DNA of 64,000 bases from a virus: the IMG/VR virus record IMGVR_UViG_3300045988_158973, positions 36,524-100,523 of that record; one strand, written 5' to 3'. Shown here in pieces: positions 1 through 54,330 of the stretch. The notes under the pieces were generated by a model that worked only from the letters and a program-made list of their open reading frames with translations, ran no database searches and was not told the DNA's origin. Position numbers and translations under genes: made by a program. Within the stretch, counting starts at the first letter, position 1. Each line of letters starts with the position of its first letter.

Positions 1-828
1 GACGCGGACGCTGACGTGTGTACACCCTTGACACGGCCGGAAACGGCGGTCATTGTTGTACAGCATAACGCGAGCGGCGTGAAAACGCGGATGGTTCCAA
101 AGGTCCTCGATAGGCATATCGTGGATATTGGCGATAGGGTATTCGCCGCGGAAGTCGTCACAGCACAGACACACCTGGCCATTCCAACGCACATCCAGTT
201 CACGGAACGGGAAGGTACAGCGCTTGTTGTTGAACGAATCGTCGAGCGGGAACGCTGCACCGCAGTGATTGGCCAGGCGACGCGTCATCTTGTTGGTATC
301 GTCTTCGGCGATAGGCGGCAGCAGGCAGATACGACGCCCCTGCTTGGGATAGTAGTACGGAACGCCCGGTTCCAGCGTGACGACGTTGTACTTTTCAACG
401 TCGATCTTCTTGACGAAGTTCCAGTCGCCGTTGGCTGTGTAGCAGTCAACCAGTATGTCGTTCATGCCGGCCTCGAACAGGCGGTCGAGGTACTCGGACG
501 TGTCAGCGGCGTGGTTCATGGCGTAGCCGTTGCTGTACATATGAAATACGGCCTTCGGTAAGTGCTTGCGGAACGTAGCCACGATGTCGATGAACGCGGG
601 GTTAAGCGTCGGCTCGCCGTGCATAGCGAACACGAACTTACAGTTCCACCCCACGCGTGCCACCTCCGAAGCAATACGCTCGGCGGTTTCAACGGTCATG
701 AAATTCCACGGTTTAGTCCCTTTTTCGCGCATACCGTGAAGACCACAGAACGAACACCCCAGATTGCACCCCTCGGTCGGCTCGATCTGCATGGTAAACG
801 GGGGGTCTTGTACGATTTTGTTTTTCAT
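1..828 (-). CDS. radical SAM enzyme with C-terminal SPASM/twitch-like Cys-rich domain (partial; 3' end runs off the window)
   Basis: Own minus-strand translation from ATG at 828. It is absent from the ORF track because there is no stop in the window. MKNKIVQDPPFTMQIEPTEGCNLGCSFCG carries CxxxCxxC. Later motifs are HGEPTLNP and the Cys-rich CTFPF..VCLCCDD..CQGC. All 276 codons are open. TAATG overlap with the upstream stop. Confidence 0.75.
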   Translation of the reverse strand, partial: MKNKIVQDPPFTMQIEPTEGCNLGCSFCGLHGMREKGTKPWNFMTVETAERIASEVARVGWNCKFVFAMHGEPTLNPAFIDIVATFRKHLPKAVFHMYSNGYAMNHAADTSEYLDRLFEAGMNDILVDCYTANGDWNFVKKIDVEKYNVVTLEPGVPYYYPKQGRRICLLPPIAEDDTNKMTRRLANHCGAAFPLDDSFNNKRCTFPFRELDVRWNGQVCLCCDDFRGEYPIANIHDMPIEDLWNHPRFHAARVMLYNNDRRFRPCQGCTHVSVRV

Positions 829-2929: not shown

Positions 2930-3101
2930 CCTCGTTTAGTTCTTTAACCGCCGCAGCCGTAGCGTCGGCGATGTATTTCAAGACATCACCGAGCGCCGCG
3001 GCGTTATTGGCGTTCCATTCCTTAATGAATCGGTTCTCGTATTGAGTAACGGTGGGGAATGGCGACGGAAGGAAGTGTGTATGTTTGGCGTTGTAGGGCA
3101 T
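2883..3101 (-). CDS. hypothetical small protein (72 aa)
   Basis: Minus-strand ORF whose start abuts the stop of the 687-aa gene. Confidence 0.45.
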   Translation of the reverse strand: MPYNAKHTHFLPSPFPTVTQYENRFIKEWNANNAAALGDVLKYIADATAAAVKELNEDETKKGNLGHTVNED

Positions 3102-5164
3102 TACTCTTCGGTGTTACCGCCGTAGATTTCGAGGAACTTGTCGACGAATTCCTTGTTGGTGCGTTTCATTACCTCGATTTGCGCGTCAACCTTCTTGCGG
3201 TATTCTTCCGGATCATACTCCCCGCGAAGCGAATCGCGTGCAGCCTGACGCTCGTCAGCGATTTTCTTCAACTCAGGATGGTTGAGGAGTTCTTGGCCAA
3301 CGCCCTTGTCGCGCGACTGCGGATCGGTAAGCGAATTGAGGCTCAAAGCAGCACGCTGGGCCTCCTTGTCGCCGGATGCGATCCTTGCTTTCAGAGCGCG
3401 GGCAATGCCTTCAGGATTCTTGGCGATCATCTTGGCGTACTCAGCCGGATCAGCCCCTCTGCCGGTTTTCTTGATGAATTTATCGGCTGCAGCGTTATCC
3501 TTCTCAGGCGAAGACTTTGTAGCTTTGTCGGCCTTGGTGCCCTTTTCAGCACTCTTCACTTCAGCCTTGGCGGCAGCATCAGCCTTCTTACCTTGCTTGG
3601 TAGCGCTTTCCTCCTCACCGCCGATCAGCGCGTCGAGTTCCTTCTGGCCGTCCTTCGATACCTTCACGCCAGCCATCTCGAACATATTGGCGATGGTGTC
3701 GGCAATTTCGTCGTCCGTAGCGTCGGACTGAGCACCACCAGTGTCAACCGGATTTGCTTTCATGGCTGCAGCCAGCTCCTTGATGGCCTTGGCGTCGCCT
3801 TTCTGCTTTACGAAGGACTTGAAGCCTTCAGTGTCGAAGTCGGTGTCGTTTTCAGCCATGTCGTCGAAACTTTGAACGAGGCCCTCGGCGCTGCTGACCT
3901 TACCGTCGTCGTTGGCGTCAGCGCGCATCTTGTCGAGCGTGGCTTGGCCTTTCTTCGAAAGTTCGATACCGGCTTCTTCGAAGATGTTGGCGATCTCGTC
4001 AGCGATTTCATCGTCGTTCAAATCGCTCTGAGCCGATTCAGCCTCGTCGGATGCCTTGATGGCGGCGACGAGTTCCTTGATGGCCTTGGCCTCGCCCTTG
4101 TTGTCGATGAGGCTTTCGAGCGCTGCGCCGAAGTCATCGTCTTCACCCGACTCCGAAGTGTAGGCGTCCCACTTGGCCAGAACGCTTTCACCCGACCCGC
4201 GAAGGTTGTCGAGTTCCTTCTTGGCCTCACGCGGTACGCGCGTTCCGGCCTCTTCGAACATATTCTCGATCATGTCGGCGATCTCGTCGTCAGCCAGATC
4301 ACTTTGCCCGGCCTCGCTGGGCATCTTACGGATGGCGTCGGCGATTTCCTTCACGGCCTTACCGCCTTTTTCCTTCACGAACGATTTGAACGACTTGGCG
4401 TCGAAGTCTGCATCGCCCTCAGCCATAGCGTTGAAACTGTCAACGAGCGATGCGGCGTCAGCCTTTCCGCCCTTACCCTTGGCGTCGGGATCGCCAAACT
4501 TAGACGCGGCTCCCTCAACGTCGCCGATCTCCTTCACCGTCACCGACTCGAAATTGTCCACGTCGGCGTAGGGGTATTTGTCCACGCGGTAGCCCTCGCT
4601 GGTCTTGGTGACTACAAGGTCGAAGCCGTCTTCGTCACCGCCGATCTGCTTGATGAAGGCGTGCGAAGCGTCCTCAACTCCGGCGTACTGCTGGAGGTCC
4701 TGATCGTCCATCTGACGGAAGCCCATGCCCTCGAACGTCGATGCCGATTTGGCGTCACCGTCAGCCAGCCCGTTACGCAGCGACGTGTCGCCGTTCTTGT
4801 TCTTGGCGCGAACGCTTACACCGCGGCGTTCCAATTCAGCGGTAGCCACCTTGCGCATTTCGGGGTCAGCCTGCGGATCGTTGGCAACCTTCGTCAGCGC
4901 CTCCTCCGAAGCCTGACGAGCGTGGTTCTGGAGGCTGACATTTCCCTCAGGCATACCACCCTCCTGGCCTTCGCCTTCAGGGTCTTCCTTGGCGGCTTGG
5001 CCGTACTCCTGTCCCACGCGCTGCAGACGACGGTTTTGAGCGTTGTCGGTGTAGACACCGTGACGCGCTTTTTCGATCGGCTCTTCCGCGGCCTCCTCGG
5101 GGTTGGTGAACCCTTTAAGAATTTGCTGGCGACGCGCTTCGCCGTAGTTGATAACTTCTTTCAT
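3101..5164 (-). CDS. acidic repeat-containing protein (687 aa); possible scaffold or internal virion protein
   Basis: D/E/K/A-rich protein with three ~93-aa tandem repeats. It is the first gene after promoter cassette P1. The function is inferred only from composition and position in the morphogenesis region. Confidence 0.6.
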   Translation of the reverse strand: MKEVINYGEARRQQILKGFTNPEEAAEEPIEKARHGVYTDNAQNRRLQRVGQEYGQAAKEDPEGEGQEGGMPEGNVSLQNHARQASEEALTKVANDPQADPEMRKVATAELERRGVSVRAKNKNGDTSLRNGLADGDAKSASTFEGMGFRQMDDQDLQQYAGVEDASHAFIKQIGGDEDGFDLVVTKTSEGYRVDKYPYADVDNFESVTVKEIGDVEGAASKFGDPDAKGKGGKADAASLVDSFNAMAEGDADFDAKSFKSFVKEKGGKAVKEIADAIRKMPSEAGQSDLADDEIADMIENMFEEAGTRVPREAKKELDNLRGSGESVLAKWDAYTSESGEDDDFGAALESLIDNKGEAKAIKELVAAIKASDEAESAQSDLNDDEIADEIANIFEEAGIELSKKGQATLDKMRADANDDGKVSSAEGLVQSFDDMAENDTDFDTEGFKSFVKQKGDAKAIKELAAAMKANPVDTGGAQSDATDDEIADTIANMFEMAGVKVSKDGQKELDALIGGEEESATKQGKKADAAAKAEVKSAEKGTKADKATKSSPEKDNAAADKFIKKTGRGADPAEYAKMIAKNPEGIARALKARIASGDKEAQRAALSLNSLTDPQSRDKGVGQELLNHPELKKIADERQAARDSLRGEYDPEEYRKKVDAQIEVMKRTNKEFVDKFLEIYGGNTEE
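3626..4453 (-). repeat. three in-frame tandem repeats (~280 nt / ~93 aa each) inside the 687-aa gene
   Basis: Repeat cores: KSFVKEKGGKAVKEIADAIRK..QSDLADDEIADMIENMFEEAG, then NKGEAKAIKELVAAIKA..QSDLNDDEIADEIANIFEEAG, then KSFVKQKGDAKAIKELAAAMKA..QSDATDDEIADTIANMFEMAG (aa ~238-513). Confidence 0.85.
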
Positions 5165-5184
5165 GGTGTTATAGGTTTATAAGT

Positions 5185-8519: not shown

Positions 8520-8777
8520 TTAGCGTGAATATACGTAGGTAGCGCGGTCGGCCCACACGAAATTGTAACTCATGTCGCCAATGGGGTATTCGGTGATGGT
8601 GATTCCGTCGGCGGTAGTCTCACGCTCGATGCGCCACCCGGCTTCGCCTTGGCCCGTACCGATGGGGGCATAGCCGCGGTAGATCACGCTGCCGCCGGAA
8701 GCGTCGATGATAGGCTTGGGCATAGCGTCAGCCAACAGCTGTACGATGGGCGCGGTGTTCTTCTCGTTACTCGTCAT
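8520..8777 (-). CDS. hypothetical small protein (85 aa)
   Basis: Minus-strand ORF overlapping the portal stop by 11 nt. Confidence 0.5.
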   Translation of the reverse strand: MTSNEKNTAPIVQLLADAMPKPIIDASGGSVIYRGYAPIGTGQGEAGWRIERETTADGITITEYPIGDMSYNFVWADRATYVYSR

Positions 8778-10527
8778 GGTTTATTGCTTTTTGTAAGTAT
8801 TCATCGAATGCGGCCACGAGCGGATTTGCCTCACGGGCCTTCATAGTTTCTTCTTCATCGCCTTGGGCGTAGAGATCGAACGGGTTGCCGGCCTGCGCTT
8901 CATCGTCTTCCTCACCTTCGCCGCCAGCCACAGGTTCATCGGCCGGGCCGCCAGCAACCTCCATACCCATACCCGCGGCCTCTTCGAACGGGTTGCCGCC
9001 GCCCATACCACCCATCGCCTGTTGCTGTTGTTGCTTGGCGCTGAGTGCTTGCTGGATGACGGCGTTCTCGATGGTGTCGCCACCCTTTTCTTCGCCGATA
9101 GCCGGGAGGTCCCACTTCTCGCGAATCTCGTCCACGGTCTGGAAGGCTTGAAGGCGTTTGATGTCCATATCCAGCTCTTCGGAAATGGTCATTCCGTTGA
9201 GGCCCATGAATACGAATTCGAAGTCAGGGTTGATTTGCTCGACTATGAATTTGTTGAGTTTACGCTGGATGAACTTCAGCATCGGGTAGAGGCCCTTGTC
9301 CTTGGACTGCTCCATGCGCTGCTTTTGGCCATCGCCGAACGTCAGGCCGCTGCCGTTGGAACGAGAAATGTCCCACCCGATTTCCGTCGGGTCGATACAG
9401 AATACAGCACACGCGATCTTGATCAGGTATTCCATCCACGAGTTGTACTCCATATCGCGGTTGTTCTTCTGGAGATCAACCCAGTCGATATCGCCCTCAA
9501 CGACGGGCGTCTTCCACGACTGCATAACGCCTGATATCATGGCCTGCCACTGCTGCTTGAACTGCTGAAGTGAAGCCTCATTGACGTTACCCTTGATCCG
9601 AAGAAGACCCTTCGGCGCTGATCCTTGAGAGAAGAAGCGGCGGTTGTATTCGTCACCCCAAAGCATCGATGTAACGACGTTAATCAGTTCTTCCAATTCA
9701 GAGTTTCCGTACCCGTTGGCGTAGATCGACGTGGTCGGGTTGCGTATACCGAAGCACAACTCCCACGGATAGAACTGCGCCACCTTGGCTGTTTGGTACA
9801 CCTGAACGTAGGCCGGATAATAGCCATCAACCTTTGGACCCCAGTTTTGGCGGTCATCCATCATAGCGCCGTCAAAATACGGGTTGTTGTATTCACCGTC
9901 GAAGTACGATTCAGCCAACCGGAACGTCGCAGCATCGACGGCTTGAAACCGTACCAGTTTGCCGCGGCGGTTACGAATGCACTCAAACGTCATCTGGTCG
10001 AACGTCAACGAGTCGTCAACGATTTTACGAATAAACTCGTCAAACTCGTCGCCGTCCCAAGTGGCGGTATCACCGCAATTGAGAATGAAGTCGGTGATGG
10101 AGGCCGCAATCTTGCGGTCTTGAGAATCCATCTTCTGCTCTTGGCCGAATTTCGGTTTACGACGAATGACGAATCCCGTAGAATAGCGGTCGGCCTGTGG
10201 TTCGGCAAAGTCGGCTATTTGGTTCTTGCGGGTCTTGAGGATTGAGTTGATGATGGGGGTGCGGCTCATCCGGCGCAGTGTCTCATACGAGAGCGAAAAC
10301 GGCTTATCCTTATACCCCAAAAACGAATTGAACTCCAAAGGATCGATCAAGTACGCCTTCGGGGCAACGTTAGCAGGCTTGGATTGCTGATTGAATATTT
10401 CAGCGGCTTTGAGTATATCGGACGGGTTGTCGCTGCTCAACGCACGCTCTACCAACAGCGACTTGCGTATTGTTAGAGCCTGCATGGCACGTTCCACCGA
10501 TTCCAATCTTTCTTTTACACCGGACAT
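8767..10527 (-). CDS. portal protein
   Basis: 586 aa. The central region ..YANGYGNSELEELINVVTSMLWGDEYNRRFFSQGSAPKGLL.. and ..NSWMEYLIKIACAVFCIDPTEIG.. is typical of phage portals. Acidic Gly-rich C-terminal tail. Confidence 0.75.
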   Translation of the reverse strand: MSGVKERLESVERAMQALTIRKSLLVERALSSDNPSDILKAAEIFNQQSKPANVAPKAYLIDPLEFNSFLGYKDKPFSLSYETLRRMSRTPIINSILKTRKNQIADFAEPQADRYSTGFVIRRKPKFGQEQKMDSQDRKIAASITDFILNCGDTATWDGDEFDEFIRKIVDDSLTFDQMTFECIRNRRGKLVRFQAVDAATFRLAESYFDGEYNNPYFDGAMMDDRQNWGPKVDGYYPAYVQVYQTAKVAQFYPWELCFGIRNPTTSIYANGYGNSELEELINVVTSMLWGDEYNRRFFSQGSAPKGLLRIKGNVNEASLQQFKQQWQAMISGVMQSWKTPVVEGDIDWVDLQKNNRDMEYNSWMEYLIKIACAVFCIDPTEIGWDISRSNGSGLTFGDGQKQRMEQSKDKGLYPMLKFIQRKLNKFIVEQINPDFEFVFMGLNGMTISEELDMDIKRLQAFQTVDEIREKWDLPAIGEEKGGDTIENAVIQQALSAKQQQQQAMGGMGGGNPFEEAAGMGMEVAGGPADEPVAGGEGEEDDEAQAGNPFDLYAQGDEEETMKAREANPLVAAFDEYLQKAINHDE

Positions 10528-10564: not shown

Positions 10565-10888
10565 TCAACACAACAGTTTCAAAATGTCGTTCCGTGCCGT
10601 TTGCCTGATAATCAGAGCCCGATGGACGATATCGCCCCACACAGCCACCTGATAACCATTCCACGTGAAATAGTCCGTCTGGTCGTCATACGAACCATTC
10701 CATTCACCGTCGTGACGTATATCAACGATCAAACGATCAAACCGCGCTTTTTCTTCCGTGGTGAAGGGTGTTATGAAAGTGCCGACGACTACTAATCGTG
10801 CGGCACTCGTAGACAGGTCATCGGCCATAATCTGAAAGTCGATACCCATAAAATCGCCCGTTTCAAGAGGCGTGTGAAAGGTTATCAT
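10565..10888 (-). CDS. hypothetical protein (107 aa)
   Basis: Minus-strand ORF with a 4-nt overlap with the upstream gene. Confidence 0.5.
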   Translation of the reverse strand: MITFHTPLETGDFMGIDFQIMADDLSTSAARLVVVGTFITPFTTEEKARFDRLIVDIRHDGEWNGSYDDQTDYFTWNGYQVAVWGDIVHRALIIRQTARNDILKLLC

Positions 10889-11895
10889 TGCCCCACTAAT
10901 TTACGAGTTTGAGGTTCAAATGTAGAACGCTGCTTACCTTCGCCAATACGCATTTTCCAATACTTTTGGTACTCACACAGCCACATTTCCACCTGATGAA
11001 GCGTTATTTCTCCCACACGCGATACGCGGTAACGCCACCCGGCGCGGTCCCAGTGTAGGTATGGGAAATTACCTAACTTCGCCAACTCGTCGCGTGATTC
11101 ATCGCGCAGGCGATATATTCCATCCACCTGACGTTTCAACGACGGAAATATCAACCGCAACCCAATCGAGGCGCCAGGCCCTACGTTGGTATAGTCGTCT
11201 TGAGTAAAACGCATGAAACGACGCGTGGTGTAGCGTGATATGTAGGTGAAGTCTTGGTAAAATTCGTGAGCGATGAATGTAGCCGATGAAGGTAAACTGC
11301 GTAAAAACCTGATGATCTGTTCGGGGGTTTCAGCCGCCAATACCGTCCGTATCAACTCACCCAAGCGCTGGTGTAACGTGGGAACCACCAAGTGCGTGTA
11401 GCAGTAGTCGCGCGGTTTACCGGGCGTGGCCATCGAATTGATCAAATACGCCGTGGTGTAAGGGTTGTTTCCCGACGCACGGTACGCAGCTATCATCTCT
11501 GCGAAGCGATCTTCGTCGTATTGGTCGTAATCCGGAATTCCCGCCTTCCAACCATATCGTTCTTGAGCGAATTCGAACGTTGCAGGATTATTGAAGTACC
11601 GAAACACCATCGTCTTCCAAACCAAATTCGTCAACGAAAGTAGCGGATCGAGGATGATGTTTCGTATTTGCCACTGCGAATTGCGGTCCAACTCGCGGTA
11701 TACGTTGGTGAACTTATAGTCCCTTAAGATCGGATCTTCGGTCCACGGACGCGGCGCTCCATCCAAGAAGCGGCGTTTCCATATCATCTGGCGCTCGAAC
11801 ATCGTTCTGAAGAACTCCGAGCGGTGCTCTTCGCTCACGTCCAGCGTTTCATCAGGTAGCTTATCTGCCCACGCATAATTATCAAAGGTCGCCAT
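10885..11895 (-). CDS. alpha-glutamyl/putrescinyl-thymine pyrophosphorylase (aGPT-Pplase)-like DNA base hypermodification protein (candidate)
   Basis: 336 aa and helix-rich. The N-terminal motif RPWTEDPILRDYKFTNVYRELDRNSQW matches my recollection of the [FY]xNxYRxxD signature of aGPT-Pplase families. Not verified by HMM. Confidence 0.45.
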   Translation of the reverse strand: MATFDNYAWADKLPDETLDVSEEHRSEFFRTMFERQMIWKRRFLDGAPRPWTEDPILRDYKFTNVYRELDRNSQWQIRNIILDPLLSLTNLVWKTMVFRYFNNPATFEFAQERYGWKAGIPDYDQYDEDRFAEMIAAYRASGNNPYTTAYLINSMATPGKPRDYCYTHLVVPTLHQRLGELIRTVLAAETPEQIIRFLRSLPSSATFIAHEFYQDFTYISRYTTRRFMRFTQDDYTNVGPGASIGLRLIFPSLKRQVDGIYRLRDESRDELAKLGNFPYLHWDRAGWRYRVSRVGEITLHQVEMWLCEYQKYWKMRIGEGKQRSTFEPQTRKLVGQ

Positions 11896-12196
11896 GCTGT
11901 TTACGATAGCTTCTAATTAACAATTCTCGTCGCGCTTCAACGCTCTTCCCAGTCAACCGCACCAACGTACCATCCGGAACCTTCATCAACGGACGTTTAG
12001 GAGCGTTTACAAGTCGTACCTCCCCGACGCCGAGGTTTACCCTTATGCGGCGACCGCGAATCGGTTTGAGGGACTCGCCAGTGATTAACGGACAGTAGTC
12101 GTTACCGTGAAACGCGCGTATTACAAACGTCGTCCGACCCCAAACTTCAGGGTCTGCAACGACATCACCTATTCTGAAATATTTCCATTGGTCCAT
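11882..12196 (-). CDS. hypothetical protein (104 aa)
   Basis: Minus-strand ORF. No motif. Confidence 0.5.
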   Translation of the reverse strand: MDQWKYFRIGDVVADPEVWGRTTFVIRAFHGNDYCPLITGESLKPIRGRRIRVNLGVGEVRLVNAPKRPLMKVPDGTLVRLTGKSVEARRELLIRSYRKQHGDL

Positions 12197-12271: not shown

Positions 12272-12934
12272 CTAAAACCCGAACACCGTCAACTGACGAG
12301 GTGACAGCTGATAGCGCTCGTTGTCGGAAAGATTGGTTTCAAGGATTTCGCACGCCTTGATGTCGGTAGCCACGTTGGCGTATTCACGCACCTTGTCGTT
12401 GTACTCTTGGCGGCACTTACGCATCTCCGGCGTAACGGGGTTCTCCTGCTCTTCGCCAACGAGCGTACCGGCAATTCGCGGCGCTTCACAGCAGTCCATG
12501 CTTTCCCACGAGAAGATGCGGAACGGGATGTCGACCTTGATGTCGGCCGTCCACCACGGCGGAGTGGTTTCAGTAGGCGCACCGCCGCACTCTTCCAACT
12601 TGCTTTCAAGTTCTGCGGCCAGAACCTGCAATTTAGCGTTCAGCGGCGGAAGAACGTCGGCCTTCAGTTTGGCCTTGATTTCCTTACCGAGTTTGCTGAA
12701 CCTGATGTTGGAATCGTAGCTGATGGCGTTCATGATATCAGCCTTCTGGAGTTCACCTTGGAGAGCCTCCTCGCTGTTGTCGGACTCAGCCTTTTCGATA
12801 GCCTCGGCCATTTTCTCGAAGACGTTGTCGGCCTTTTCAACTTCGTCGCCTTCAGGGATCGGGCCAAAGCCCTTGAGCATGTGCTCCTGACGCTCGGCGC
12901 GAGCGCCTAAAATGATGTCACGAATGTTTTCCAT
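12272..12934 (-). CDS. hypothetical protein (220 aa, acidic N-terminal half)
   Basis: Minus-strand ORF followed by a hairpin terminator. Confidence 0.6.
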   Translation of the reverse strand: MENIRDIILGARAERQEHMLKGFGPIPEGDEVEKADNVFEKMAEAIEKAESDNSEEALQGELQKADIMNAISYDSNIRFSKLGKEIKAKLKADVLPPLNAKLQVLAAELESKLEECGGAPTETTPPWWTADIKVDIPFRIFSWESMDCCEAPRIAGTLVGEEQENPVTPEMRKCRQEYNDKVREYANVATDIKACEILETNLSDNERYQLSPRQLTVFGF

Positions 12935-15040: not shown

Positions 15041-15326
15041 AACAATCCATCACCAAATTACCTTCACACTCCAAGGCATACAACCGTTCAGCGTCTGGTT
15101 TGGCGTAACAGAATATCAATTTACCGCCGCCAGCGGCTTGTAGTGCCTTACGGTATGCAACCTTGATACGCTGAAAGGTTTCACTCCTGTAAAAGTCGTA
15201 GTCGCTGACGCATATCTCCCACCACCGTTCTTGGCGTGACGCCCAGGAAATTACTCCTGGGCGTTCGGCTTCGATTCGCTTTACAGCGGCCAACATCAAC
15301 GAACCGTGTCGGCGATCTGGTTTCAT
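15039..15326 (-). CDS. hypothetical protein (95 aa)
   Basis: Minus-strand ORF with a 4-nt overlap with the upstream gene. Confidence 0.5.
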   Translation of the reverse strand: MKPDRRHGSLMLAAVKRIEAERPGVISWASRQERWWEICVSDYDFYRSETFQRIKVAYRKALQAAGGGKLIFCYAKPDAERLYALECEGNLVMDC

Positions 15327-15910
15327 AACGTTTCGTCGAGGTTTTGAGCCAGTTCAGCCAACAGTTTCACGTGTACACGCTCGTCAGCAATAATCTTGTT
15401 AATCAACTGAACGGCCAACGTAGAAGTCACGGTCGGCGTAGGGTTGCTGGATTGAATGCGCTGGATGAGTTTCTCGTACGAAGTGATGGTGTCTTGCTCG
15501 GCGCGGAGGTTGATCATCACCGCTTCGATGGGACTTTCGGTCGTAATGTTCACTTTGGCTGCCGAAAACACGGGCTTCGATACGGCGTGACCCAGATGAG
15601 CGATGAAGTCGCCTAAACGATCGTAGTGCTTCATTTCGGTCAGCGCGATTCCCAAGAACGTTTCGCCAATCTGGTCGAAAAGCATTCGCTGCTGCGTGTA
15701 CTGGAGAATGGCCGTGAGTTCCGACGTCTCGTTGATGCCGGCGTATGCCTTGTAGAACCACTCGGCCGGAACGCCATCGTCGGCTTTGGCCTTGGAAATA
15801 TCCGGATAATCGACTACATGGTCGGCGAAGCGCATCGACTCTACCATGGCGTCAGCCATCGCTTCGACGTTATCCTGTTTGGCAGGATTGTGTAAGAGTA
15901 TCGTTTTCAT
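15323..15910 (-). CDS. ferritin-like / Mn-catalase (CotJC)-like di-metal protein
   Basis: Paired helices with metal-ligand-like motifs: ETSELTAILQYTQQ, LTEMKHYDRLGDFIAHLG, LRAEQDTITSYEKL and IADERVHVKLL. Confidence 0.45.
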   Translation of the reverse strand: MKTILLHNPAKQDNVEAMADAMVESMRFADHVVDYPDISKAKADDGVPAEWFYKAYAGINETSELTAILQYTQQRMLFDQIGETFLGIALTEMKHYDRLGDFIAHLGHAVSKPVFSAAKVNITTESPIEAVMINLRAEQDTITSYEKLIQRIQSSNPTPTVTSTLAVQLINKIIADERVHVKLLAELAQNLDETL

Positions 15911-15922
15911 GAGTTACGAGTA

Positions 15923-16603
15923 TTAATATCCACCGTCCGTGGTGTGACCGTCGTTATCGATACGTTTCCAGTAGCCGCAGTCCTCGCACTGGTAAAGAAC
16001 CGTGTCGTCTAAGTCCTTCGTTACCGACATCGGCGAGCCGCAGCGCGGGCACGGTTTCACGTCTTCGTCCCACACGGCACGCGGTGTTTCCTTTTTGACC
16101 GTTGACCCGAAACCACCCGTGTCGCGCTTCGACGGAGTGAGTTCTTCAACCCAACCGGACTCAATTTGGGGCGCAGGCACGATGACCAGCTGGGCTACGA
16201 CATCACCGACGGCGAACGCCTTGGAATGTATCGGGCGGGGATTGACACAGAGTTTTCCGACTCCGTGACTATACGTCTGTAGTTTACCGGCAATCTTCTG
16301 CCACAGCGTCGGTGCGTGGAAGACGTTTTTGTAGCGAGCGCGCATCGTACCACGATACCCCGGATCGATCACCCCCGGCGCGTTACACATCACCAGGTCC
16401 TTTTTCGAACAGCGCGAATTGGGGACCAAAAAGCCGCAGTACCCCTTGGGTATTTCAACGGCCACGCCAGTGTCGTATTCGATGTAGTCTTCGGTTTCCT
16501 CGATCGACACAGCCACGAGGTCCAGTCCGTTGTCTTCGCCGTCGGGGTGAGCGTATGTCGGGAGAACAGCGTTGGGGTGTACTTTCTTGAATTTTACGTT
16601 CAT
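15923..16603 (-). CDS. dut: dUTPase-family enzyme with internal insertion and C-terminal Zn ribbon
   Basis: dUTPase motifs NGLDL, PNSRCS, GVIDPGYRG and RDTGGFGST. There is a ~35-aa insertion between motifs III and IV. The C-terminal CPRCG..CEDCG forms a zinc ribbon. Confidence 0.75.
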   Translation of the reverse strand: MNVKFKKVHPNAVLPTYAHPDGEDNGLDLVAVSIEETEDYIEYDTGVAVEIPKGYCGFLVPNSRCSKKDLVMCNAPGVIDPGYRGTMRARYKNVFHAPTLWQKIAGKLQTYSHGVGKLCVNPRPIHSKAFAVGDVVAQLVIVPAPQIESGWVEELTPSKRDTGGFGSTVKKETPRAVWDEDVKPCPRCGSPMSVTKDLDDTVLYQCEDCGYWKRIDNDGHTTDGGY

Positions 16604-17415
16604 TTCTTGTATCCTTTTAAGTGTATTTTGACTTCGATCATTTCACGATCCTTCATTTCGCCACCCCAGTTGGTGCACCGCTTGGTACGAAGGGTGATAT
16701 ACTCGGGGAACGCTTCTCTTAAACGTTGTGACTCGGCATTGGAGTTCTCGATAGTTCGATACACGGAGCAACCGCCAGCGGCGTTGGCTCCTGTCATTTT
16801 ATCGAACGAATACTGGTACGAAACCACGTTATCCAATCCCGCACGGCGTAAGCCACACGCCACCGCAAAATCTTCCTTGATGGGCCACTCGCTGAATCTC
16901 ACAGGCTGGCTCAGATACTGCTCGATGTTCAGCCCCCAAATGGAGAAGAACCGCCCGTTGATCTGTACGTCGTGTTCCTTATCGCGGTTGAAAGGACGGT
17001 ACGAAAGCGCCGCCACGGCATAGGTGTCCAGCTGTTCAGCCACCCAGTCGAACATCATCGAGTAGATATATTCTTGAGCCTCGACGGTGAAATTGTCGTT
17101 GTTTATGACTACAGGGGTCTTGGCATCGTCTAAACGTAGCGAGAAAGACACGTTATCGTCTAAAAAGAAGACTCCGCCAAATCCCCGATTTTGGGCCTCT
17201 ACAACAATGTAGTCGCGTATATCCCCCACGCCGCGACACGCCGTGCTGTATTCCTCGATGCCGCCAACCTTACCGCCCCAGTTACGGCGATGAACCGCCA
17301 ATTCGCCGGGGTGACAGAATACGGTCACGCGCCGACGCGCTTCAGGAGTGAGACGTTGAAGGGTTTTCTGACGGTCAACACGACCACGAGTGAATAGTGC
17401 TATCAGAGTTTTCAT
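16600..17415 (-). CDS. GT-A-like glycosyltransferase candidate (271 aa)
   Basis: N-terminal beta-alpha start MKTLIALFTRGR..KTLQRL and a DxD-like FFLDDN motif. It resembles DNA-modification-associated GT-A proteins. Weak evidence, read by eye only. Confidence 0.3.
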   Translation of the reverse strand: MKTLIALFTRGRVDRQKTLQRLTPEARRRVTVFCHPGELAVHRRNWGGKVGGIEEYSTACRGVGDIRDYIVVEAQNRGFGGVFFLDDNVSFSLRLDDAKTPVVINNDNFTVEAQEYIYSMMFDWVAEQLDTYAVAALSYRPFNRDKEHDVQINGRFFSIWGLNIEQYLSQPVRFSEWPIKEDFAVACGLRRAGLDNVVSYQYSFDKMTGANAAGGCSVYRTIENSNAESQRLREAFPEYITLRTKRCTNWGGEMKDREMIEVKIHLKGYKK

Positions 17416-24804: not shown

Positions 24805-24871
24805 GGGGGATTATAGGGGGTTAAGGAGTAAAGGGGGTGAGGGGGAAGAGAACCATCGGGGGAAAAGGGGG
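24805..24871 (+). repeat. six G5 runs in 67 nt (G-quadruplex-capable on plus strand, C5 runs on the coding strand)
   Basis: GGGGG at 24805, 24816, 24833, 24841, 24858 and 24867. Confidence 0.8.
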
Positions 24872-24883
24872 AGGAGGCTGCCA

Positions 24884-24920
24884 ACAGAAAAGCCGCCAAG
24901 GACCTAAATCCAAGGCGGCT
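24884..24920 (-). terminator. hairpin terminator after 24945 gene
   Basis: The minus strand reads AGCCGCCTTGGA-TTTAGG-TCCTTGGCGGCT followed by TTTTCTGTT. Confidence 0.65.
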
Positions 24921-24944
24921 AAAAGCGTCAACGCCAAAGCGTCG

Positions 24945-25931
24945 TTACGACACGGGTTTGCCCTTTGTGTCCATCACCACGGCGGCTTCCTCGACCTTCT
25001 CGTCCAGATCGGCCACCGTAGGAGCGCTGCCGTCCTTGGGGATGACGATACGCGCCAGCCCTACCTTCTTCCCGAGCGACTTACCCAGCATCTCTGCCAA
25101 GGCCGCCATCGGGTTGTCTTCAAGGACTTCAGCAGGCTCTTCGTCGATGATACCGTGTTCGCGCTTGTATACCTCCGACATGGCCAAAAAGCGCGTGTGG
25201 TACTCGTTGACGATCTCTTCAGCGTCGTGCTGGAGATAGCCTTCGTCGGCCAACGTGGCCAACACTTCAGGGTTGATAGCCACCAGGCGTTCGACGATGA
25301 ACGTTCCAACGCCAAACACGTTCACCAACAGCAGGCCGTCGGTGCGGCGGTATACAGCACCCATGAGGTCGTTGTCGACCATCACGAACTGGTTCTTCAG
25401 TTCGCGCGGATTCAGCGTGGGGACGTGGCGCATACATTCCTCAACGCCGATACCGCAGTGGCCGTAGCGGTTGTTAACGATTTTCAGGACCGAGCGCTCG
25501 ATCACCAGCCACTCAGCGTCCAACACCGGGCCGTACTTTTCGATGGCCTCAACACCAAGGGCGGTGAAGTGAAGCGTGTCGTCGTCAACGCACAACTCCA
25601 ACAGCCCGGCGTCGCTACACTCGTACGACACGCGCTTGATTTCGCGAACGAAGTCTGCGCCGTCAGGGATAGGCATCACGCGCCGCATCAGCAGGTTGGC
25701 GTCCAGCATCTGGCCAAGCCAGTTACGGACCTCGCTGTAAGGCACGGCCACTTCGTCAACACCCGTGAACGGCAGCGGGCCTTCGTCGACGTTAGGGATG
25801 AAGGGGCGGTCAGCGGCAGCAGCGGCGACGGCGTACAGGAACAGAACCTGCGTCTTGGTGATTGAGGCTTCGGCGTTGATGGCCAGCGGGGCGGTGGCGT
25901 TGAAAACGCTCGTGATAGTTTGATTTTCCAT
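24945..25931 (-). CDS. hypothetical protein (328 aa)
   Basis: Last gene of the P3 unit. No motif. Confidence 0.6.
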   Translation of the reverse strand: MENQTITSVFNATAPLAINAEASITKTQVLFLYAVAAAAADRPFIPNVDEGPLPFTGVDEVAVPYSEVRNWLGQMLDANLLMRRVMPIPDGADFVREIKRVSYECSDAGLLELCVDDDTLHFTALGVEAIEKYGPVLDAEWLVIERSVLKIVNNRYGHCGIGVEECMRHVPTLNPRELKNQFVMVDNDLMGAVYRRTDGLLLVNVFGVGTFIVERLVAINPEVLATLADEGYLQHDAEEIVNEYHTRFLAMSEVYKREHGIIDEEPAEVLEDNPMAALAEMLGKSLGKKVGLARIVIPKDGSAPTVADLDEKVEEAAVVMDTKGKPVS

Positions 25932-47923: not shown

Positions 47924-48574
47924 TTAAATTATGTTATTTTGTAAAGCGTTTACGGCTTCGCGCGGTACATAAAGCGTGTGTACAGTATCAAATACATCAG
48001 CCACTTCACACGCATTTTGTAACGTTGTCACTGCTTTCCGGAAATTGTCGTTACAGTACGGAAGCAGATTCAACGGCCATGAACGGTTCCCCATGGAGAG
48101 TTCGCGGTTCAGGAAATACAACAGCGCCATCCAGTCTGCCACCTTCACCACCGCATGAGTGATATCGTAATACTCACCCGTCTTGGAGAGAGTTTGAAGT
48201 ACCTCTGAATCCGCGCCAAAGTCATCCGCCATCTGGTGTTCGACGAACTTATCGAGTGCGTATCGTATTTCCATGCCATTGTAGGCGTTGTATTTCACCT
48301 CGTGAGTGATGTCACGACGCAAAATGGCTTCATCGAAGTCGTGCATCAGCGCCACTTTCAACGTTCGGTACTTGAAAGCCAATACGGCGTTAGTTTCAGT
48401 CCCCGTAGGCCAAAAGTAGTCCAGTAGGCTCATTGTGAAGACCGACACCTTGAACGAGTGCTGCGAAACACTCTCCTGCTGATGGCGGTCGTATTCCAGC
48501 CACTGCTTGATGTTGTCCAGCCGCGCCAAATAATCGCGATTGAACAGTTTTGTTAAATCCCCTTTGATTCCCAT
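47924..48574 (-). CDS. HD-domain 5'-deoxynucleotidase (YfbR-like)
   Basis: ESVSQHSFKVSVF, ALMHDFDEAILRRDITHEVKY and VKVADWMALLYFLNRELSMGN align block by block with E. coli YfbR ([54 protein letters not shown]). Confidence 0.75.
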   Translation of the reverse strand: MGIKGDLTKLFNRDYLARLDNIKQWLEYDRHQQESVSQHSFKVSVFTMSLLDYFWPTGTETNAVLAFKYRTLKVALMHDFDEAILRRDITHEVKYNAYNGMEIRYALDKFVEHQMADDFGADSEVLQTLSKTGEYYDITHAVVKVADWMALLYFLNRELSMGNRSWPLNLLPYCNDNFRKAVTTLQNACEVADVFDTVHTLYVPREAVNALQNNII

Positions 48575-53076: not shown

Positions 53077-54303
53077 TTACAACAATTTACTGGGTTCTGC
53101 GTTAGATAACCTTGCTTCGAAGAAGTTTCTCGCCAGCATCATGTAGTCCCACTTTTCGTCGGCTTCACAGCTGGTGTTGATAAGGCCTAACAGCCCGTGA
53201 CATTCGTTCAACAGCTGATCGCGGTCTTCGCCGAGACACGCATGGCGGTTACGCTTGTAAAAGACGTACAGTTTCAGCAACTCGTACACACCCCAAAAGT
53301 AAGTCGACTTCTCCAGCACATACTGCTCAAACCCCGCTTCGTCGTCGGGGTCAGTACCGTTAGTGTTACGATGAAGCAGCCGGGAGATCAGTTCGTCCAT
53401 GAAGGCCGTTATTTCACGCAAACGGTTTACCGCCACTTCAGATTCGAACTTGAAGTCCATCATATAGGCAACGCCGCCTTCGCGAACGTTGTAAATACTG
53501 CTCCGCGCTTCGTCAGCCATGAATAATTTCGCCATTTGTTCAGCGGTTTTATTCCACTCGTAGATGTGTAACGACTGCGAGTTATGGGTCTGAACACCCA
53601 ACTCAATTCCTAAACAAAGGGACATTATCTCCGTCAGGAACGAGAACTGAAAGATGTTCGTAGGAAGGCCCCAGTGGAGGTCATTCGAGCGATTCTGAAT
53701 AGTGGTAACGAGTTTGCCGTTGCGTATCTTGAGCATCACCATGTCGTTACAGGGCAAGTCTTTCGACTTCACGCCCAAATCGAAGCGGGGGTTCCAAATC
53801 GACATCACCACCTGTCGCGTTTCGGGATCAGCCGACAACAGCCGCACAGCCTCGCTCACCTGGTCAAAGCCGGGGTCCATCGACTCGCTCTCAGAAGCTA
53901 TTCCCCAATGACGCAAACGCCATCCATAAGGGGCGTGAAACGTTTCGCCATTGTCAGAAAAATCAGCCATCTTGCTGTTGAAGATCGTCAAAAATTCAAC
54001 ATCCTTGCGGCCTGTAGCTATCCACATGGCTTCAGCCAGCAGGAAGAATATATTGATGTTGCGGCCATACCCTCCCACACACCGACGGTACGGGTTGTTG
54101 ACGATGGTCTTAACGTCTAAAAGTTCACGAACGTTACCACCGCGCGAAGGGTTCAGCGGGAGATTATTCATCATCAATTTGTTGATGTAGGGATATACCT
54201 CCGCAAACGACCCCCATGTATCAGTAAACGCGACGCGTCTTTCGAAGTTAAAATCAAAGCGACTCAAGCCCACAGCGTCTTGGGAAATAGACTCTTGTTT
54301 CAT
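53077..54303 (-). CDS. thymidylate synthase-superfamily enzyme (ThyA homologue or dUMP hydroxymethylase) with ~130-aa C-terminal extension
   Basis: DLPCNDMVMLKIRNGKLVTTIQNRSNDLHWGLPTNIFQFSFL..SLHIYEWN aligns with E. coli [49 protein letters not shown]. The catalytic Cys and the dUMP-specifying Asn are present. The start is set to ATG 54303. Confidence 0.8.
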   Translation of the reverse strand: MKQESISQDAVGLSRFDFNFERRVAFTDTWGSFAEVYPYINKLMMNNLPLNPSRGGNVRELLDVKTIVNNPYRRCVGGYGRNINIFFLLAEAMWIATGRKDVEFLTIFNSKMADFSDNGETFHAPYGWRLRHWGIASESESMDPGFDQVSEAVRLLSADPETRQVVMSIWNPRFDLGVKSKDLPCNDMVMLKIRNGKLVTTIQNRSNDLHWGLPTNIFQFSFLTEIMSLCLGIELGVQTHNSQSLHIYEWNKTAEQMAKLFMADEARSSIYNVREGGVAYMMDFKFESEVAVNRLREITAFMDELISRLLHRNTNGTDPDDEAGFEQYVLEKSTYFWGVYELLKLYVFYKRNRHACLGEDRDQLLNECHGLLGLINTSCEADEKWDYMMLARNFFEARLSNAEPSKLL

Positions 54304-54330
54304 ATCTGGAATCAATTTTATACGCCCTTA

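What the first reader, a model, noticed from the sequence alone, without database searches (positions are those of the whole stretch)
10885..11895. aGPT-pyrophosphorylase-like gene: the phage may carry hypermodified thymidine
The 336-aa helical protein has RPWTEDPILRDYKFTNVYRELDRNSQW near its N-terminus. I recognise this, from memory and not from an HMM, as the signature region of the alpha-glutamyl/putrescinyl-thymine pyrophosphorylase families. Those enzymes decorate 5-hydroxymethyl-dU in phage DNA, as in the ViI, M6, SP10 and PhiW-14-type pathways.

Other components expected for such a pathway are also in this window:
- A divergent dUMP-specific thymidylate synthase homologue (53077-54303).
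- A dNMP nucleotidase (47924-48574).
- An atypical dUTPase (15923-16603).
- A radical SAM enzyme (1-828).
- A GT-A-like protein (16600-17415).

I could not find a P-loop 5-hmdU DNA kinase here. Either it lies outside the window or the chemistry differs from the described pathways.
Basis: partly seen in the sequence, partly recalled or inferred. Interest (0 to 1): 0.75.

Follow-up and report, generated by a model that had tools for sequence, protein, structure and literature searches.

The report
Thymine-hypermodification gene without its usual kinase
This gene in a roughly 100-kb phage (apparently from the human gut) belongs to a known family tied to chemically decorated thymine in phage DNA, but the phage lacks the kinase and transferase that normally accompany it and carries DNA sugar-transferases instead, which points to an undescribed, probably sugar-based, branch of the pathway.

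Summary
The ORF is real: 10885-11895, minus strand, 336 aa, with the quoted motif. It matches Pfam PF18723 at E 1.8e-51. PF18723 is now called HMUDK_hel and was formerly aGPT-Pplase clade 1. The ORF is a homologue of M6 gp55, PaMx11 gp50 and the C-terminal half of SP10 gp186.

The claimed chemistry, however, is proven only for clade 2 (AADT, PF18724). Clade 1 was dispensable in vitro and has no assigned activity.

All the listed companion genes check out: a dUMP-type TS homologue, an HD nucleotidase, a dUTPase/DCD-like protein, a radical SAM-SPASM enzyme and a TAGT glycosyltransferase.

I rebuilt the genome of a near-identical ~101-kb relative. It has no 5-hmdU DNA kinase, no AADT and no small P-loop ORF. 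It does have a second TAGT.

PF18723 keeps an invariant Cys and Phe, and a mostly conserved Glu. These align with the catalytic Cys247, base-clamping Trp146 and metal-binding Glu243 of AADT.

In Brevibacterium phage LuckyBarnes, and in 50 of 76 sampled non-gut viral contigs, PF18723 sits in a TS-like/TAGT/PF18723 cassette without a kinase.

Best reading: a kinase-independent, glycosyltransferase-linked variant of 5-hmdU hypermodification. The family is known; the pathway context is a new variant. The chemistry is untested.

The parts
10885..11895 (-). Stand-alone PF18723 protein (aGPT-Pplase clade 1 / HMUDK_hel), 336 aa. Carries E303-x3-C307-E308-x2-K311 and F207.
   Evidence: Pfam E 1.8e-51. 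Homologue of PaMx11 gp50, M6 gp55 and the C-terminal half of SP10 gp186. AF2 pLDDT 89.6. BFVD matches at TM 0.60-0.75. Family invariants.
11882..12196 (-). 104-aa ORF of unknown function. Its stop overlaps the PF18723 start by 14 nt. Conserved upstream partner.
   Evidence: Present beside PF18723 in 70 of 80 related ~100-kb contigs. No Pfam or PHROG hit.
10565..10888 (-). 107-aa ORF of unknown function. Its start overlaps the PF18723 stop (ATGA).
   Evidence: A ~104-113-aa ORF lies downstream of PF18723 in most of the 12 related loci mapped, directly after it in about half. No family hit.
12272..12934 (-). 220-aa ORF of unknown function. Part of the conserved block FEN-p220-p104-PF18723-p107-portal.
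   Evidence: Found in 71 of 80 related loci. No family hit.
16600..17415 (-). TAGT-family GT-A glycosyltransferase (TAGT1), 4.7 kb from PF18723. Motif is DDN where relatives have DDD.
   Evidence: Pfam PF20691 E 6.7e-13. PHROG 842 E 7e-28. Homologous to LuckyBarnes gp39 and gp40. Motif.
15923..16603 (-). dUTPase / dCTP-deaminase-like protein with a C-terminal zinc ribbon. Inferred to supply dUMP and exclude dUTP.
   Evidence: Pfam dUTPase E 2.2e-8 and DCD 5.3e-5. PHROG 135 E 7.5e-31.
53077..54315 (-). Divergent thymidylate-synthase homologue, candidate dUMP hydroxymethylase.
   Evidence: Pfam PF00303 E 9.4e-23. Keeps the catalytic Cys and the Asn177 equivalent, and shares motifs with PaMx11 gp51.
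47924..48574 (-). HD-domain YfbR-like 5'-deoxynucleotidase. Inferred to remove dTMP or another dNMP. Counterpart of PaMx11 gp52.
   Evidence: Pfam PF12917 E 7e-12. PaMx11 gp52 hits the same family.
1..828 (-). Radical SAM + SPASM enzyme, 319 aa in full and cut by the window start. A 226-aa ORF and a second TAGT follow it just outside the window.
   Evidence: Pfam hits. Context in L008 and L009. Not similar to the M6 gp53 radical SAM enzyme. Membership in the pathway is uncertain.

Best explanation
**What it is**
- The ORF encodes a stand-alone PF18723 protein (aGPT-Pplase clade 1 = 'HMUDK_hel').
- It is an almost entirely helical DNA-base-flipping protein, paralogous to the amino-acid:DNA transferases (AADT, clade 2).

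**Proposed pathway**
1. Inferred from gene content: the phage makes 5-hydroxymethyl-dUMP with its dUMP-type TS homologue. The dUTPase/DCD-like and HD nucleotidase genes support this. 5-hmdU is then incorporated into DNA in place of some or all T.
2. Inferred from conserved residues: after replication, the PF18723 protein flips a 5-hmdU-derived base out of the duplex. It clamps the base between the invariant Phe207 and Cys307. Glu303 and Cys307 are placed as the metal-binding Glu and the C6-attacking Cys are in AADT.
3. Inferred from genomic context: in this phage the protein works with TAGT-type DNA glycosyltransferases, not with the 5-hmdU DNA kinase and AADT of the M6, ViI, SP10 and PhiW-14 pathways.
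4. Expected product: an O-glycosylated, base-J-like or further elaborated 5-hmdU that shields the genome from host nucleases.

**Shown versus inferred**
- Shown: family membership, residue conservation, absence of kinase and AADT from the genome, and the recurrent TS-TAGT-PF18723 cassette elsewhere.
- Inferred: the substrate, the chemistry of this protein, the partnership with the glycosyltransferases, and the existence of the modification itself.
For: **Family**
- Pfam PF18723 E 1.8e-51.
- Homologues in T-hypermodifying phages. PaMx11 gp50 lies next to kinase gp49 and TS-like gp51. M6 gp55 scores HMM E 5e-61. SP10 gp186 is a kinase-PF18723 fusion.
- BFVD structural matches at TM 0.60-0.75 to proteins named 'Pplase1 clade 1' or 'HMUDK helical domain'.

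**Catalytic-type residues**
- Across 100 diverse members, R35, N64, R67, D70, F207, G241, C307 and K311 are invariant. E308 is 99% conserved. Position 303 is Glu in 89% and Gln in 11%.
- Profile-profile alignment with an AADT profile puts E303/C307 on Glu243/Cys247 and F207 on Trp146 of PaMx11 gp46. Those are the metal ligand, the nucleophile and the base clamp in structure 8Z2N (PMC11472151).
- AADT-domain proteins are the next structural neighbours (probability ~1, TM 0.45-0.50).

**5-hmdU supply**
- The TS homologue keeps the Cys146 and Asn177 equivalents.
- The HD and dUTPase/DCD-like genes are present.
- PF18723 is absent from phages that carry plain hmU: only 6 SP10-like Bacillus phage records match it, against 244 Bacillus records matching the portal.

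**No kinase or AADT**
- Searches covered the window plus the remaining 37 kb of a near-identical 100,969-bp contig.
- There were no phmmer or HMM hits to PaMx11, M6 or SP10 kinases or to AADT.
- No small ORF has an N-terminal P-loop.

**Glycosyltransferase link**
- The genome has two TAGT genes.
- LuckyBarnes has the operon TS-like / GT / GT / PF18723 and no kinase or AADT in the 50 of 50.8 kb of its genome that I scanned.
- Of 76 sampled non-gut viral contigs, 50 carry TS-like + TAGT + PF18723 without kinase or AADT. TAGT usually abuts PF18723. The pattern occurs in 6 of 12 clusters at 50% identity.
- Only 1 of 51 TAGT-linked loci has a real small kinase.
Against: - No activity has ever been shown for any clade-1 protein. 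M6 gp55 was dispensable for the kinase + AADT reaction in vitro.
- The alignment to AADT is weak statistically: hhalign E 0.012, probability 3.7%. Foldseek against the solved gp46 structure gives E 0.95 and TM 0.34-0.38. The metal-ligand Thr244 is not conserved; it is Met304 here.
- In this genome the genes are dispersed. TAGT1 is 4.7 kb away, TAGT2 about 11 kb away and TS about 42 kb away.
- In the wider ~100-kb clade only 18 of 80 loci have a TAGT within 10 kb, while PF18723 is always in the FEN-p220-p104-PF18723-portal block. The glycosyltransferase link is therefore not obligatory in this lineage.
- TAGT1 has DDN where relatives have DDD.
- The sample of 76 loci was chosen by similarity to LuckyBarnes gp38, so it is biased towards the GT-linked branch.
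- No chemical data exist for this phage's DNA.
Confidence: 0.55

Rival explanations
1. PF18723 is a non-catalytic specificity or DNA-binding subunit. It recognises and flips 5-hmdU and presents it to whichever enzyme modifies the hydroxyl group: the kinase in classical phages, or the TAGT glycosyltransferase here. This is what the current Pfam name ('helical domain of the kinase') implies.
For: - It is fused to the kinase in SP10 gp186 and in P0220.
- It lies directly downstream of the kinase in PaMx11, M6, L180 and L218, and abuts TAGT in most cassette loci.
- The kinase works without it in vitro, as expected for an accessory factor.
Against: - A Cys invariant in 100 of 100 diverse members, plus Glu/Gln303, Glu308 and Lys311, is more than a binding module usually needs. 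These residues map onto the AADT catalytic site.
- No TAGT-PF18723 fusions were found among 16 long members.
Confidence: 0.25
2. This is the classical pathway after all. A 5-hmdU DNA kinase and an AADT exist but are too divergent to recognise, or the host provides them. The protein then acts as in M6 or ViI.
For: - Validated kinases score poorly against Pfam. PaMx11 gp49 hits HMUDK_HMUD1 at only E 0.002.
- My kinase HMM missed the small AAA_33 kinase in L221.
- An unassigned 583-aa P-loop protein sits beside TAGT2.
Against: - No small ORF with an N-terminal Walker A occurs anywhere in the ~101-kb genome.
- The 583-aa protein has its Walker A at residue ~218-232, and its motifs look AAA+-like to me by eye. 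It has no Pfam hit and no similarity to known kinases.
- The AADT HMM finds nothing, although AADT is well conserved.
- 49-50 of 51 GT-linked loci also lack any candidate kinase within 6 kb.
Confidence: 0.08
3. The gene has a packaging role, as a small terminase or DNA-recognition factor. This is suggested by its position between TerL and portal and by a PHROG label.
For: - A weak hit to phrog_800 'terminase small subunit' (E 2.8e-7).
- The gene lies in a conserved block immediately upstream of the portal in 76 of 80 related contigs.
- No TerS has been identified in this genome.
Against: - The 'terminase small subunit' label is also attached to PaMx11 gp49, M6 gp54 and SP10 gp186. These are experimentally proven 5-hmdU DNA kinases (PMC8989533), so the label is propagated error.
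- In LuckyBarnes the homologue sits in the replication module with TS and the glycosyltransferases, far from that phage's own annotated TerS, TerL and portal.
- The TerL-portal interval here also holds nucleotide-metabolism genes.
Confidence: 0.03
4. The DNA carries only unmodified T or plain 5-hmdU. The PF18723 gene then does something unrelated to hypermodification, for example repair-like processing of hmU, or it is a relic.
For: - Clade-1 function is unknown.
- Most of the wider ~100-kb clade lacks a nearby TAGT.
- The portal is related to those of SPO1-like phages, which carry plain hmU.
Against: - The gene is highly conserved: 98% identical clusters with over 100 member sequences, and 48-99% identity across the clade with all family invariants kept.
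- Plain-hmU SPO1-type phages lack the family.
- Every cultured phage I checked that has a homologue also carries hypermodification genes or glycosyltransferases.
Confidence: 0.09

Closest known systems
aGPT-Pplase clade 1 / HMUDK_hel proteins of known T-hypermodifying phages (M6 gp55, PaMx11 gp50, SN1_020, ViI gp160-type, PhiW-14 C9DG43, C-terminal half of SP10 gp186)
   Same: Same Pfam family (PF18723), full-length match and same invariant residues. 27-29% identity. Predicted fold matches at TM 0.60-0.75. Like them, it occurs in a genome with a dUMP-type TS homologue and an HD nucleotidase.
   Different: Those proteins lie beside, or are fused to, a P-loop 5-hmdU DNA kinase and co-occur with a clade-2 AADT. 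Here both are missing from the whole genome and TAGT glycosyltransferases are present instead. The gene sits next to the portal gene rather than beside TS.
Amino-acid:DNA transferases (AADT / aGPT-Pplase clade 2 / PUGT; PaMx11 gp46, PDB 8Z2M/8Z2N; M6 gp51; ViI gp247; 15599 Pplase2)
   Same: Helical HhH-like fold. It is the nearest solved structure and the next-nearest predicted viral fold. The invariant Cys, the preceding Glu and the aromatic clamp align with Cys247, Glu243 and Trp146.
   Different: No PF18724 HMM hit. About 10-15% identity. The N-terminal half and its invariant N-x2-R-x2-D motif differ from the AADT pocket. Thr244 is not conserved. No transferase activity has been shown for clade 1.
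TS-like / GT / GT / PF18723 operon of Brevibacterium phage LuckyBarnes (gp41-gp38) and the TS-TAGT-PF18723 cassette in viral metagenome contigs
   Same: Same three families (dUMP-type TS homologue, TAGT-type GT-A glycosyltransferase, PF18723) with no kinase and no AADT. TAGT1 is homologous to gp39 and gp40 (E 1e-14 to 1e-20).
   Different: In those phages the genes are contiguous. Here they are scattered over the genome. PF18723 identity to gp38 is only 28%. As far as the searchable literature shows, none of these cassettes has been characterised chemically.
Glycosylated hydroxymethyl-pyrimidines: base J (JBP + JGT) in kinetoplastids, glucosyl-hmC of T-even phages, TET/5mYOX + GT-A pathways of phages
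   Same: A hydroxymethyl-pyrimidine in DNA serves as acceptor for a DNA glycosyltransferase. TAGT-type GT-A enzymes resemble JGT structurally and are often found near ThyS genes (bioRxiv 10.1101/2023.12.21.572611).
   Different: None of those systems is described with a PF18723 partner (no mention in that paper). Here the hydroxymethyl base would be made before replication by a TS homologue, and would be hmU rather than hmC.

Membership tests
PF18723 (aGPT-Pplase clade 1 = HMUDK_hel) | Profile HMM score above the curated cut-off over the whole domain | tested here: met
   175.6 bits against a cut-off of 25, E 1.8e-51, profile positions 4-279 of 281. A local HMM of 100 diverse members scores E 2e-109.
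PF18723 (aGPT-Pplase clade 1 = HMUDK_hel) | Family-invariant residues (R35, N64, R67, D70, F207, G241, C307, K311; E308 at 99%) | tested here: met
   All are present in the window protein. Invariance was measured on 100 sequences of 24-64% identity.
PF18723 (aGPT-Pplase clade 1 = HMUDK_hel) | Predicted fold shared with named members | tested here: met
   The AF2 model (pLDDT 89.6) matches SP10 gp186, phiRSL1 and PhiW-14 proteins and two 'Pplase1 clade 1' entries, at E 4.5e-14 to 1.5e-4 and TM 0.60-0.75.
PF18723 (aGPT-Pplase clade 1 = HMUDK_hel) | Adjacent to or fused with a P-loop 5-hmdU DNA kinase (the basis of the current Pfam name) | tested here: not met
   No kinase homologue and no small P-loop ORF in the window or in the rest of the ~101-kb genome. 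This is a feature of context, not of the domain itself.
AADT / aGPT-Pplase clade 2 (PF18724) | Profile HMM match | tested here: not met
   No PF18724 hit at E <= 1. A local AADT HMM gives no hit to this ORF.
AADT / aGPT-Pplase clade 2 (PF18724) | Catalytic Cys with the metal-binding Glu-Thr four residues upstream (E243-T244-x2-C247 in PaMx11 gp46) | tested here: inconclusive
   hhalign aligns E303...C307 with E243...C247 and F207 with W146, but only at E 0.012 and probability 3.7%. Thr is replaced by Met304. MAFFT gives the same Cys column.
AADT / aGPT-Pplase clade 2 (PF18724) | Transfer of an amine or hydroxyl nucleophile onto 5-phosphomethyl-dU in DNA | not testable with these tools
   Needs enzymology. 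For clade 1 the only published datum is that M6 gp55 is dispensable in vitro.
Classical thymidine hypermodification pathway (M6, ViI, SP10, PhiW-14, PaMx11, 15599) | 5-HMUDK and AADT both encoded | tested here: not met
   Neither was found in the complete relative genome.
Classical thymidine hypermodification pathway (M6, ViI, SP10, PhiW-14, PaMx11, 15599) | dUMP hydroxymethylase-type TS homologue with supporting nucleotide enzymes | tested here: met
   The TS homologue has the Cys146 and Asn177 equivalents and resembles PaMx11 gp51. HD nucleotidase and dUTPase/DCD-like genes are present. Hydroxymethylase rather than methylase activity is inferred, not tested.
Classical thymidine hypermodification pathway (M6, ViI, SP10, PhiW-14, PaMx11, 15599) | Tailoring enzymes (PLP decarboxylase, M6-type radical SAM isomerase, FAD lyase, acetyltransferase) | tested here: not met
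   No homologues of M6 gp52 or gp53 or of PaMx11 gp47 or gp48. The radical SAM enzyme present is a SPASM type unrelated at phmmer level.
TS-TAGT-PF18723 cassette (LuckyBarnes type) | All three families in one genome, without kinase or AADT | tested here: met
   TAGT1 is homologous to LuckyBarnes gp39 and gp40.
TS-TAGT-PF18723 cassette (LuckyBarnes type) | Genes contiguous, with TAGT abutting PF18723 | tested here: not met
   TAGT1 is 4.7 kb away and TS is 42 kb away. The immediate neighbours are two small unknown ORFs and the portal gene.
HhH DNA glycosylase superfamily | Significant structural similarity to solved HhH glycosylases | tested here: inconclusive
   AGOG-type glycosylases appear only at E 4.5-6.6 and TM 0.19-0.40. 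The link rests on published profile analyses cited.
Small terminase | Homology to validated TerS, or position in a TerS-TerL pair | tested here: not met
   The only hit is a weak one to phrog_800, whose members include proven kinases. LuckyBarnes encodes a separate TerS.

The most novel reading that the evidence does not exclude
PF18723 proteins may be the shared core of a second, kinase-independent branch of thymidine hypermodification: dUMP hydroxymethylase + TAGT glycosyltransferase + PF18723. In that branch a Cys-dependent, AADT-like enzyme would act on 5-hmdU or glycosyl-hmdU in DNA. The product would be a glycosylated, phage 'base J'-type thymidine or a still unknown derivative. The branch would be common in environmental viromes and present in a recurrent ~100-kb phage lineage seen in what appear to be human gut metagenomes.
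Probability: 0.3. Interest if true: 0.8.

Novelty: new variant of a known kind. Interest (0 to 1): 0.6.

Why it matters
Clade 1 of this family has been present in every classical thymidine-hypermodifying phage since it was first predicted. It still has no assigned activity, and its Pfam name now treats it as an appendage of the kinase.

Three results argue that it has its own role at the 5-hmdU base:
- It persists without any kinase.
- It keeps an invariant AADT-like Cys.
- It is tightly linked to DNA glycosylransferases in many phages.

If confirmed, several things would follow:
- A new class of modified thymidine in phage DNA.
- A function for an orphan enzyme family.
- An explanation for how a recurrent lineage of ~100-kb phages (apparently from the human gut) could evade restriction and CRISPR.
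- A warning that sequencing-based or restriction-based gut virome methods may misread such genomes.

Enzymes that write sugars onto thymine in DNA would also be useful tools.

Tried and rejected
- Megablast of 12 kb around the gene against 50,697 phage records gave no match, so no annotated close relative could be used.
- Sequence search of the PDB found nothing, with either the single protein or a 100-sequence profile.
- hhalign of family profiles against the single gp46 sequence was uninformative. Only profile against profile gave a co-linear alignment, and that was still weak.
- Foldseek against the PDB was not significant (best 8z2m, E 0.95).
- Pfam scanning of concatenated ORFs to save calls worked for strong domains but is less sensitive. 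I therefore backed the 'no kinase / no AADT' conclusion with phmmer or HMM searches and Walker-A scans.
- One script ran phmmer with the wrong query file and was repeated.
- The small-terminase reading was considered and rejected. The PHROG/RefSeq label also sits on experimentally proven kinases, and LuckyBarnes has a separate TerS.
- I looked for TAGT-PF18723 fusion proteins among 16 long family members. I found only a kinase fusion and unassigned extensions.
- The Iyer et al. 2013 paper that defined the clades is not in the library. What it says about clade 1 and glycosyltransferases could not be checked, which limits the novelty claim.
Full report
**1. Observation**

The ORF at 10885-11895 lies on the minus strand, starts with ATG and encodes 336 aa. 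It contains the quoted motif. It is translationally coupled to two small ORFs. The stop of a 104-aa ORF (11882-12196) overlaps its start by 14 nt. Its own stop overlaps the start of a 107-aa ORF (10565-10888) in an ATGA. Nearly all genes in the window are on the minus strand.

**2. Family**

- Pfam gives one strong hit: PF18723 'HMUDK_hel, 5-hmdU DNA kinase helical domain'. The score is E 1.8e-51 and 175.6 bits, covering the whole profile. No aGPT-Pplase or ADDT model hits at E <= 1.
  - PaMx11 gp46, called aGPT-Pplase2 in Lee et al. 2021 (PMC8989533), now hits PF18724 'ADDT'. PaMx11 gp50, the gene next to the kinase, hits PF18723.
  - The SN1 announcement calls the equivalent M6-type gene 'aGPT-Pplase1' (PMC9476957).
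  - Structural neighbours of my AF2 model in BFVD are named either 'Pplase1 alpha-glutamyl/putrescinyl thymine pyrophosphorylase clade 1' or '5-hmdU DNA kinase helical domain-containing protein'.
- tblastn finds homologues in 459 phage records. Most are ViI-like, M6/PaMx11-like and SP10-like phages.
- M6 gp55 is a direct homologue. SP10 gp186 is a kinase-PF18723 fusion.

**3. What is known about this clade**

- The experimentally established steps are phosphorylation of 5-hmdU in DNA by the P-loop kinase, then displacement of the phosphate by an amino acid or polyamine, catalysed by the clade-2 enzyme.
- M6 gp55 (clade 1) could be left out of the in vitro reaction.
- The 2024 structural paper and the 2026 dapT paper do not assign it a function.
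- The statement that 'those enzymes decorate 5-hmdU' therefore does not yet apply to this clade.

**4. Companion genes**

All the listed genes verify.
- 53077-54315 is a TS homologue. It keeps the catalytic Cys and the Asn that specifies dUMP rather than dCMP, and it shares motifs with PaMx11 gp51. The Asn/Asp rule comes from established work on T4 dCMP hydroxymethylase, which I cite from my own knowledge.
- 47924-48574 is a YfbR-like HD nucleotidase, as is PaMx11 gp52.
- 15923-16603 is dUTPase/DCD-like with a zinc ribbon.
- 16600-17415 is a TET-associated glycosyltransferase (TAGT, PF20691). It also matches PHROG 842 'beta-glucosyl-HMC-alpha-glucosyltransferase'.
- 1-828 is a radical SAM-SPASM enzyme. 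It shows no detectable similarity to the M6 radical SAM isomerase, so its role in this pathway is doubtful.

**5. The rest of the genome**

- The exact protein occurs on ~100-kb metagenomic contigs. From the sample names these appear to be human gut datasets; that is my inference.
- I walked outward from both window ends. By overlapping loci from one 100,969-bp IMG/VR contig that is 97-99% identical where it overlaps the window, I covered the ~37 kb outside the window.
- That region holds head, tail and baseplate genes. It also holds the full radical SAM-SPASM gene, a 226-aa ORF, a second TAGT, a 583-aa P-loop protein that looks AAA+-like, and a 794-aa protein.
- No homologue of the PaMx11, M6 or SP10 kinases, of AADT, or of the PLP, FAD or acetyltransferase tailoring enzymes exists anywhere.
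- No small ORF has an N-terminal P-loop.

**6. Structure and conserved residues**

- AF2 gives a confident model (pLDDT 89.6, pTM 0.87). It is almost entirely helical with one beta hairpin.
- In BFVD it matches family members at TM 0.60-0.75. AADT-domain proteins follow at probability ~1 and TM 0.45-0.50.
- In the PDB the best hit is PaMx11 gp46 (8z2m), but it is not significant.
- The family is large: 3,268 cluster representatives at E <= 1e-3.
- Across 100 diverse members, R35, N64, R67, D70, F207, G241, C307 and K311 are invariant. E308 is 99% conserved. Position 303 is Glu in 89% and Gln in 11%.
- A profile-profile alignment with 27 AADTs is co-linear over 125 columns (E 0.012). It aligns:
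  - E303 with Glu243, the metal ligand;
  - C307 with Cys247, the C6 nucleophile;
  - F207 with Trp146, which together with Cys247 clamps the flipped base in the gp46-DNA crystal structure.
- The statistics are weak, but the residues that align are exactly the invariant ones.
- I infer that PF18723 proteins flip out a C5-substituted uracil and probably use, or at least retain, thiol chemistry at C6.

**7. Genomic context elsewhere**

- Brevibacterium phage LuckyBarnes encodes the operon TS-like gp41 / GT gp40 / GT gp39 / PF18723 gp38 in its replication module. I found no kinase and no AADT in the 50 of 50.8 kb I scanned. Its TerS, TerL and portal lie elsewhere. The window's TAGT1 is homologous to gp39 and gp40.
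- I sampled 80 viral contigs nearest to gp38 and annotated them with locally built HMMs. Of 76 loci outside the gut clade:

| Content near PF18723 | Loci |
|---|---|
| TS-like + TAGT, no kinase or AADT (TAGT usually directly abutting) | 50 |
| With a kinase | 5 |
| TS-like only | 6 |
| TAGT only | 3 |
| None of these | 12 |

- At 50% identity, the cassette occurs in 6 of 12 clusters.
- All 72 TS homologues in this set are dUMP-type.
- Only one GT-linked locus (L221) also has a genuine small kinase.
- The sample is biased towards LuckyBarnes-like sequences. It still shows that a kinase-free TS-TAGT-PF18723 module is recurrent and phylogenetically spread.
- Pyle et al. report that GT-A DNA glycosyltransferases are often near ThyS genes, but they do not mention this family.

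**8. Context in the phage's own clade**

- In 80 related ~100-kb contigs (48-99% identity), PF18723 sits in the conserved block FEN - 220-aa - 104-aa - PF18723 - ~110-aa - portal. This block lies downstream of an intein-containing TerL.
- A TAGT lies within 10 kb in only 18 of the 80, mainly the closest relatives.
- One distant member (L150) has a kinase-like ORF nearby.
- So the glycosyltransferase link is supported for this phage and by analogy, but it is not universal in the lineage.
- The portal is most similar to those of Chryseobacterium phage MA9V-3 and SPO1-like Herelleviridae. Several of the latter are known to carry 5-hmU DNA (my knowledge). SPO1-type phages with plain hmU lack PF18723, which ties the family to further modification rather than to hmU synthesis.

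**9. Verdict**

The family is right and hypermodified thymidine is plausible. The proven chemistry belongs to the sister clade, and the classical pathway is incomplete here.
- Best explanation (confidence about 0.55): a kinase-independent, glycosyltransferase-linked variant of 5-hmdU hypermodification. In it, the PF18723 protein engages the flipped base through Phe207 and Cys307.
- Main rival (0.25): the protein is a non-catalytic targeting subunit for whichever enzyme modifies the hydroxyl group.
- Minor rivals: a hidden classical pathway (0.08), a packaging role (0.03), and no hypermodification at all (0.09).
- The family is known. The context is a new variant. Chemistry has to decide.

Noticed in passing
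Outside the window: L008 19825-20933 versus L025 11479-12587: A ~1.1-kb segment just after the tail-fibre gene is inverted between two near-identical contigs (98% identity). This gives the fibre alternative C-termini: 706 aa, versus 586 aa plus an opposite-strand 269-aa ORF that shares 'FSGSTNGTTAQWTELGGGG'. It looks like an invertible host-range switch.
   Followed up: partly
window 48590-53075 (-): The DnaE-type DNA polymerase III alpha appears to be split into two ORFs (51372-53075 and 48590-50662) by what looks like a GIY-YIG homing-endonuclease ORF (50632-51384). Both calls rest on reading the translations by eye; no profile search was run on these three ORFs.
   Followed up: no
window 17435-20152 (-): The large terminase (905 aa) carries an intein with Hint and LAGLIDADG domains.
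   Followed up: partly
Outside the window start: L008 10933-17540: The radical SAM-SPASM gene is followed by a 226-aa ORF, a second TAGT (267 aa, DDD motif), a 583-aa P-loop protein that looks AAA+-like (no Pfam hit) and a 794-aa protein (no precomputed Pfam hit). All are embedded among virion genes. This may be a second modification or ejected-protein module.
   Followed up: partly
window 16600-17415 (-): TAGT1 and its gut-clade orthologues have DDN where TAGT2, LuckyBarnes gp39/gp40 and most cassette glycosyltransferases have DDD in the GT-A metal-binding motif. This suggests altered metal or donor binding.
   Followed up: partly
L167 2700-3188 and equivalent ORFs in L172, L185 and others: In many TS-TAGT-PF18723 cassette contigs, a 162-169-aa Pyr_excise (pyrimidine-dimer DNA glycosylase family) ORF lies directly upstream of PF18723. 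The window genome has no homologue.
   Followed up: partly
L001 5420-5989, L238 7686-8249, L070 3053-4966: RefSeq annotates the experimentally validated 5-hmdU DNA kinases PaMx11 gp49, M6 gp54 and SP10 gp186 as 'terminase small subunit'. PHROG 800 carries the same label. This is a propagated mis-annotation.
   Followed up: yes
window 3059-5182 (+) / 3101-5164 (-), and 24837-25865 (+) / 24945-25931 (-): Two pairs of long mirror ORFs are open on both strands (707/687 aa and 342/328 aa). Gene calls in related contigs use the minus-strand versions. Neither has a Pfam hit.
   Followed up: no
window 15323-15910 (-): A ferritin/rubrerythrin-like protein is encoded between the dUTPase-like gene and the FEN gene. 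It is conserved in 42 of 80 related contigs. It might supply or sequester iron for the radical SAM enzyme or other iron enzymes.
   Followed up: no
window 8767-10527 (-): The portal protein is closest (38-41% identity) to those of Chryseobacterium phage MA9V-3 (103 kb) and SPO1-like Herelleviridae. This places the uncultured phage near a lineage known for 5-hmU DNA.
   Followed up: partly
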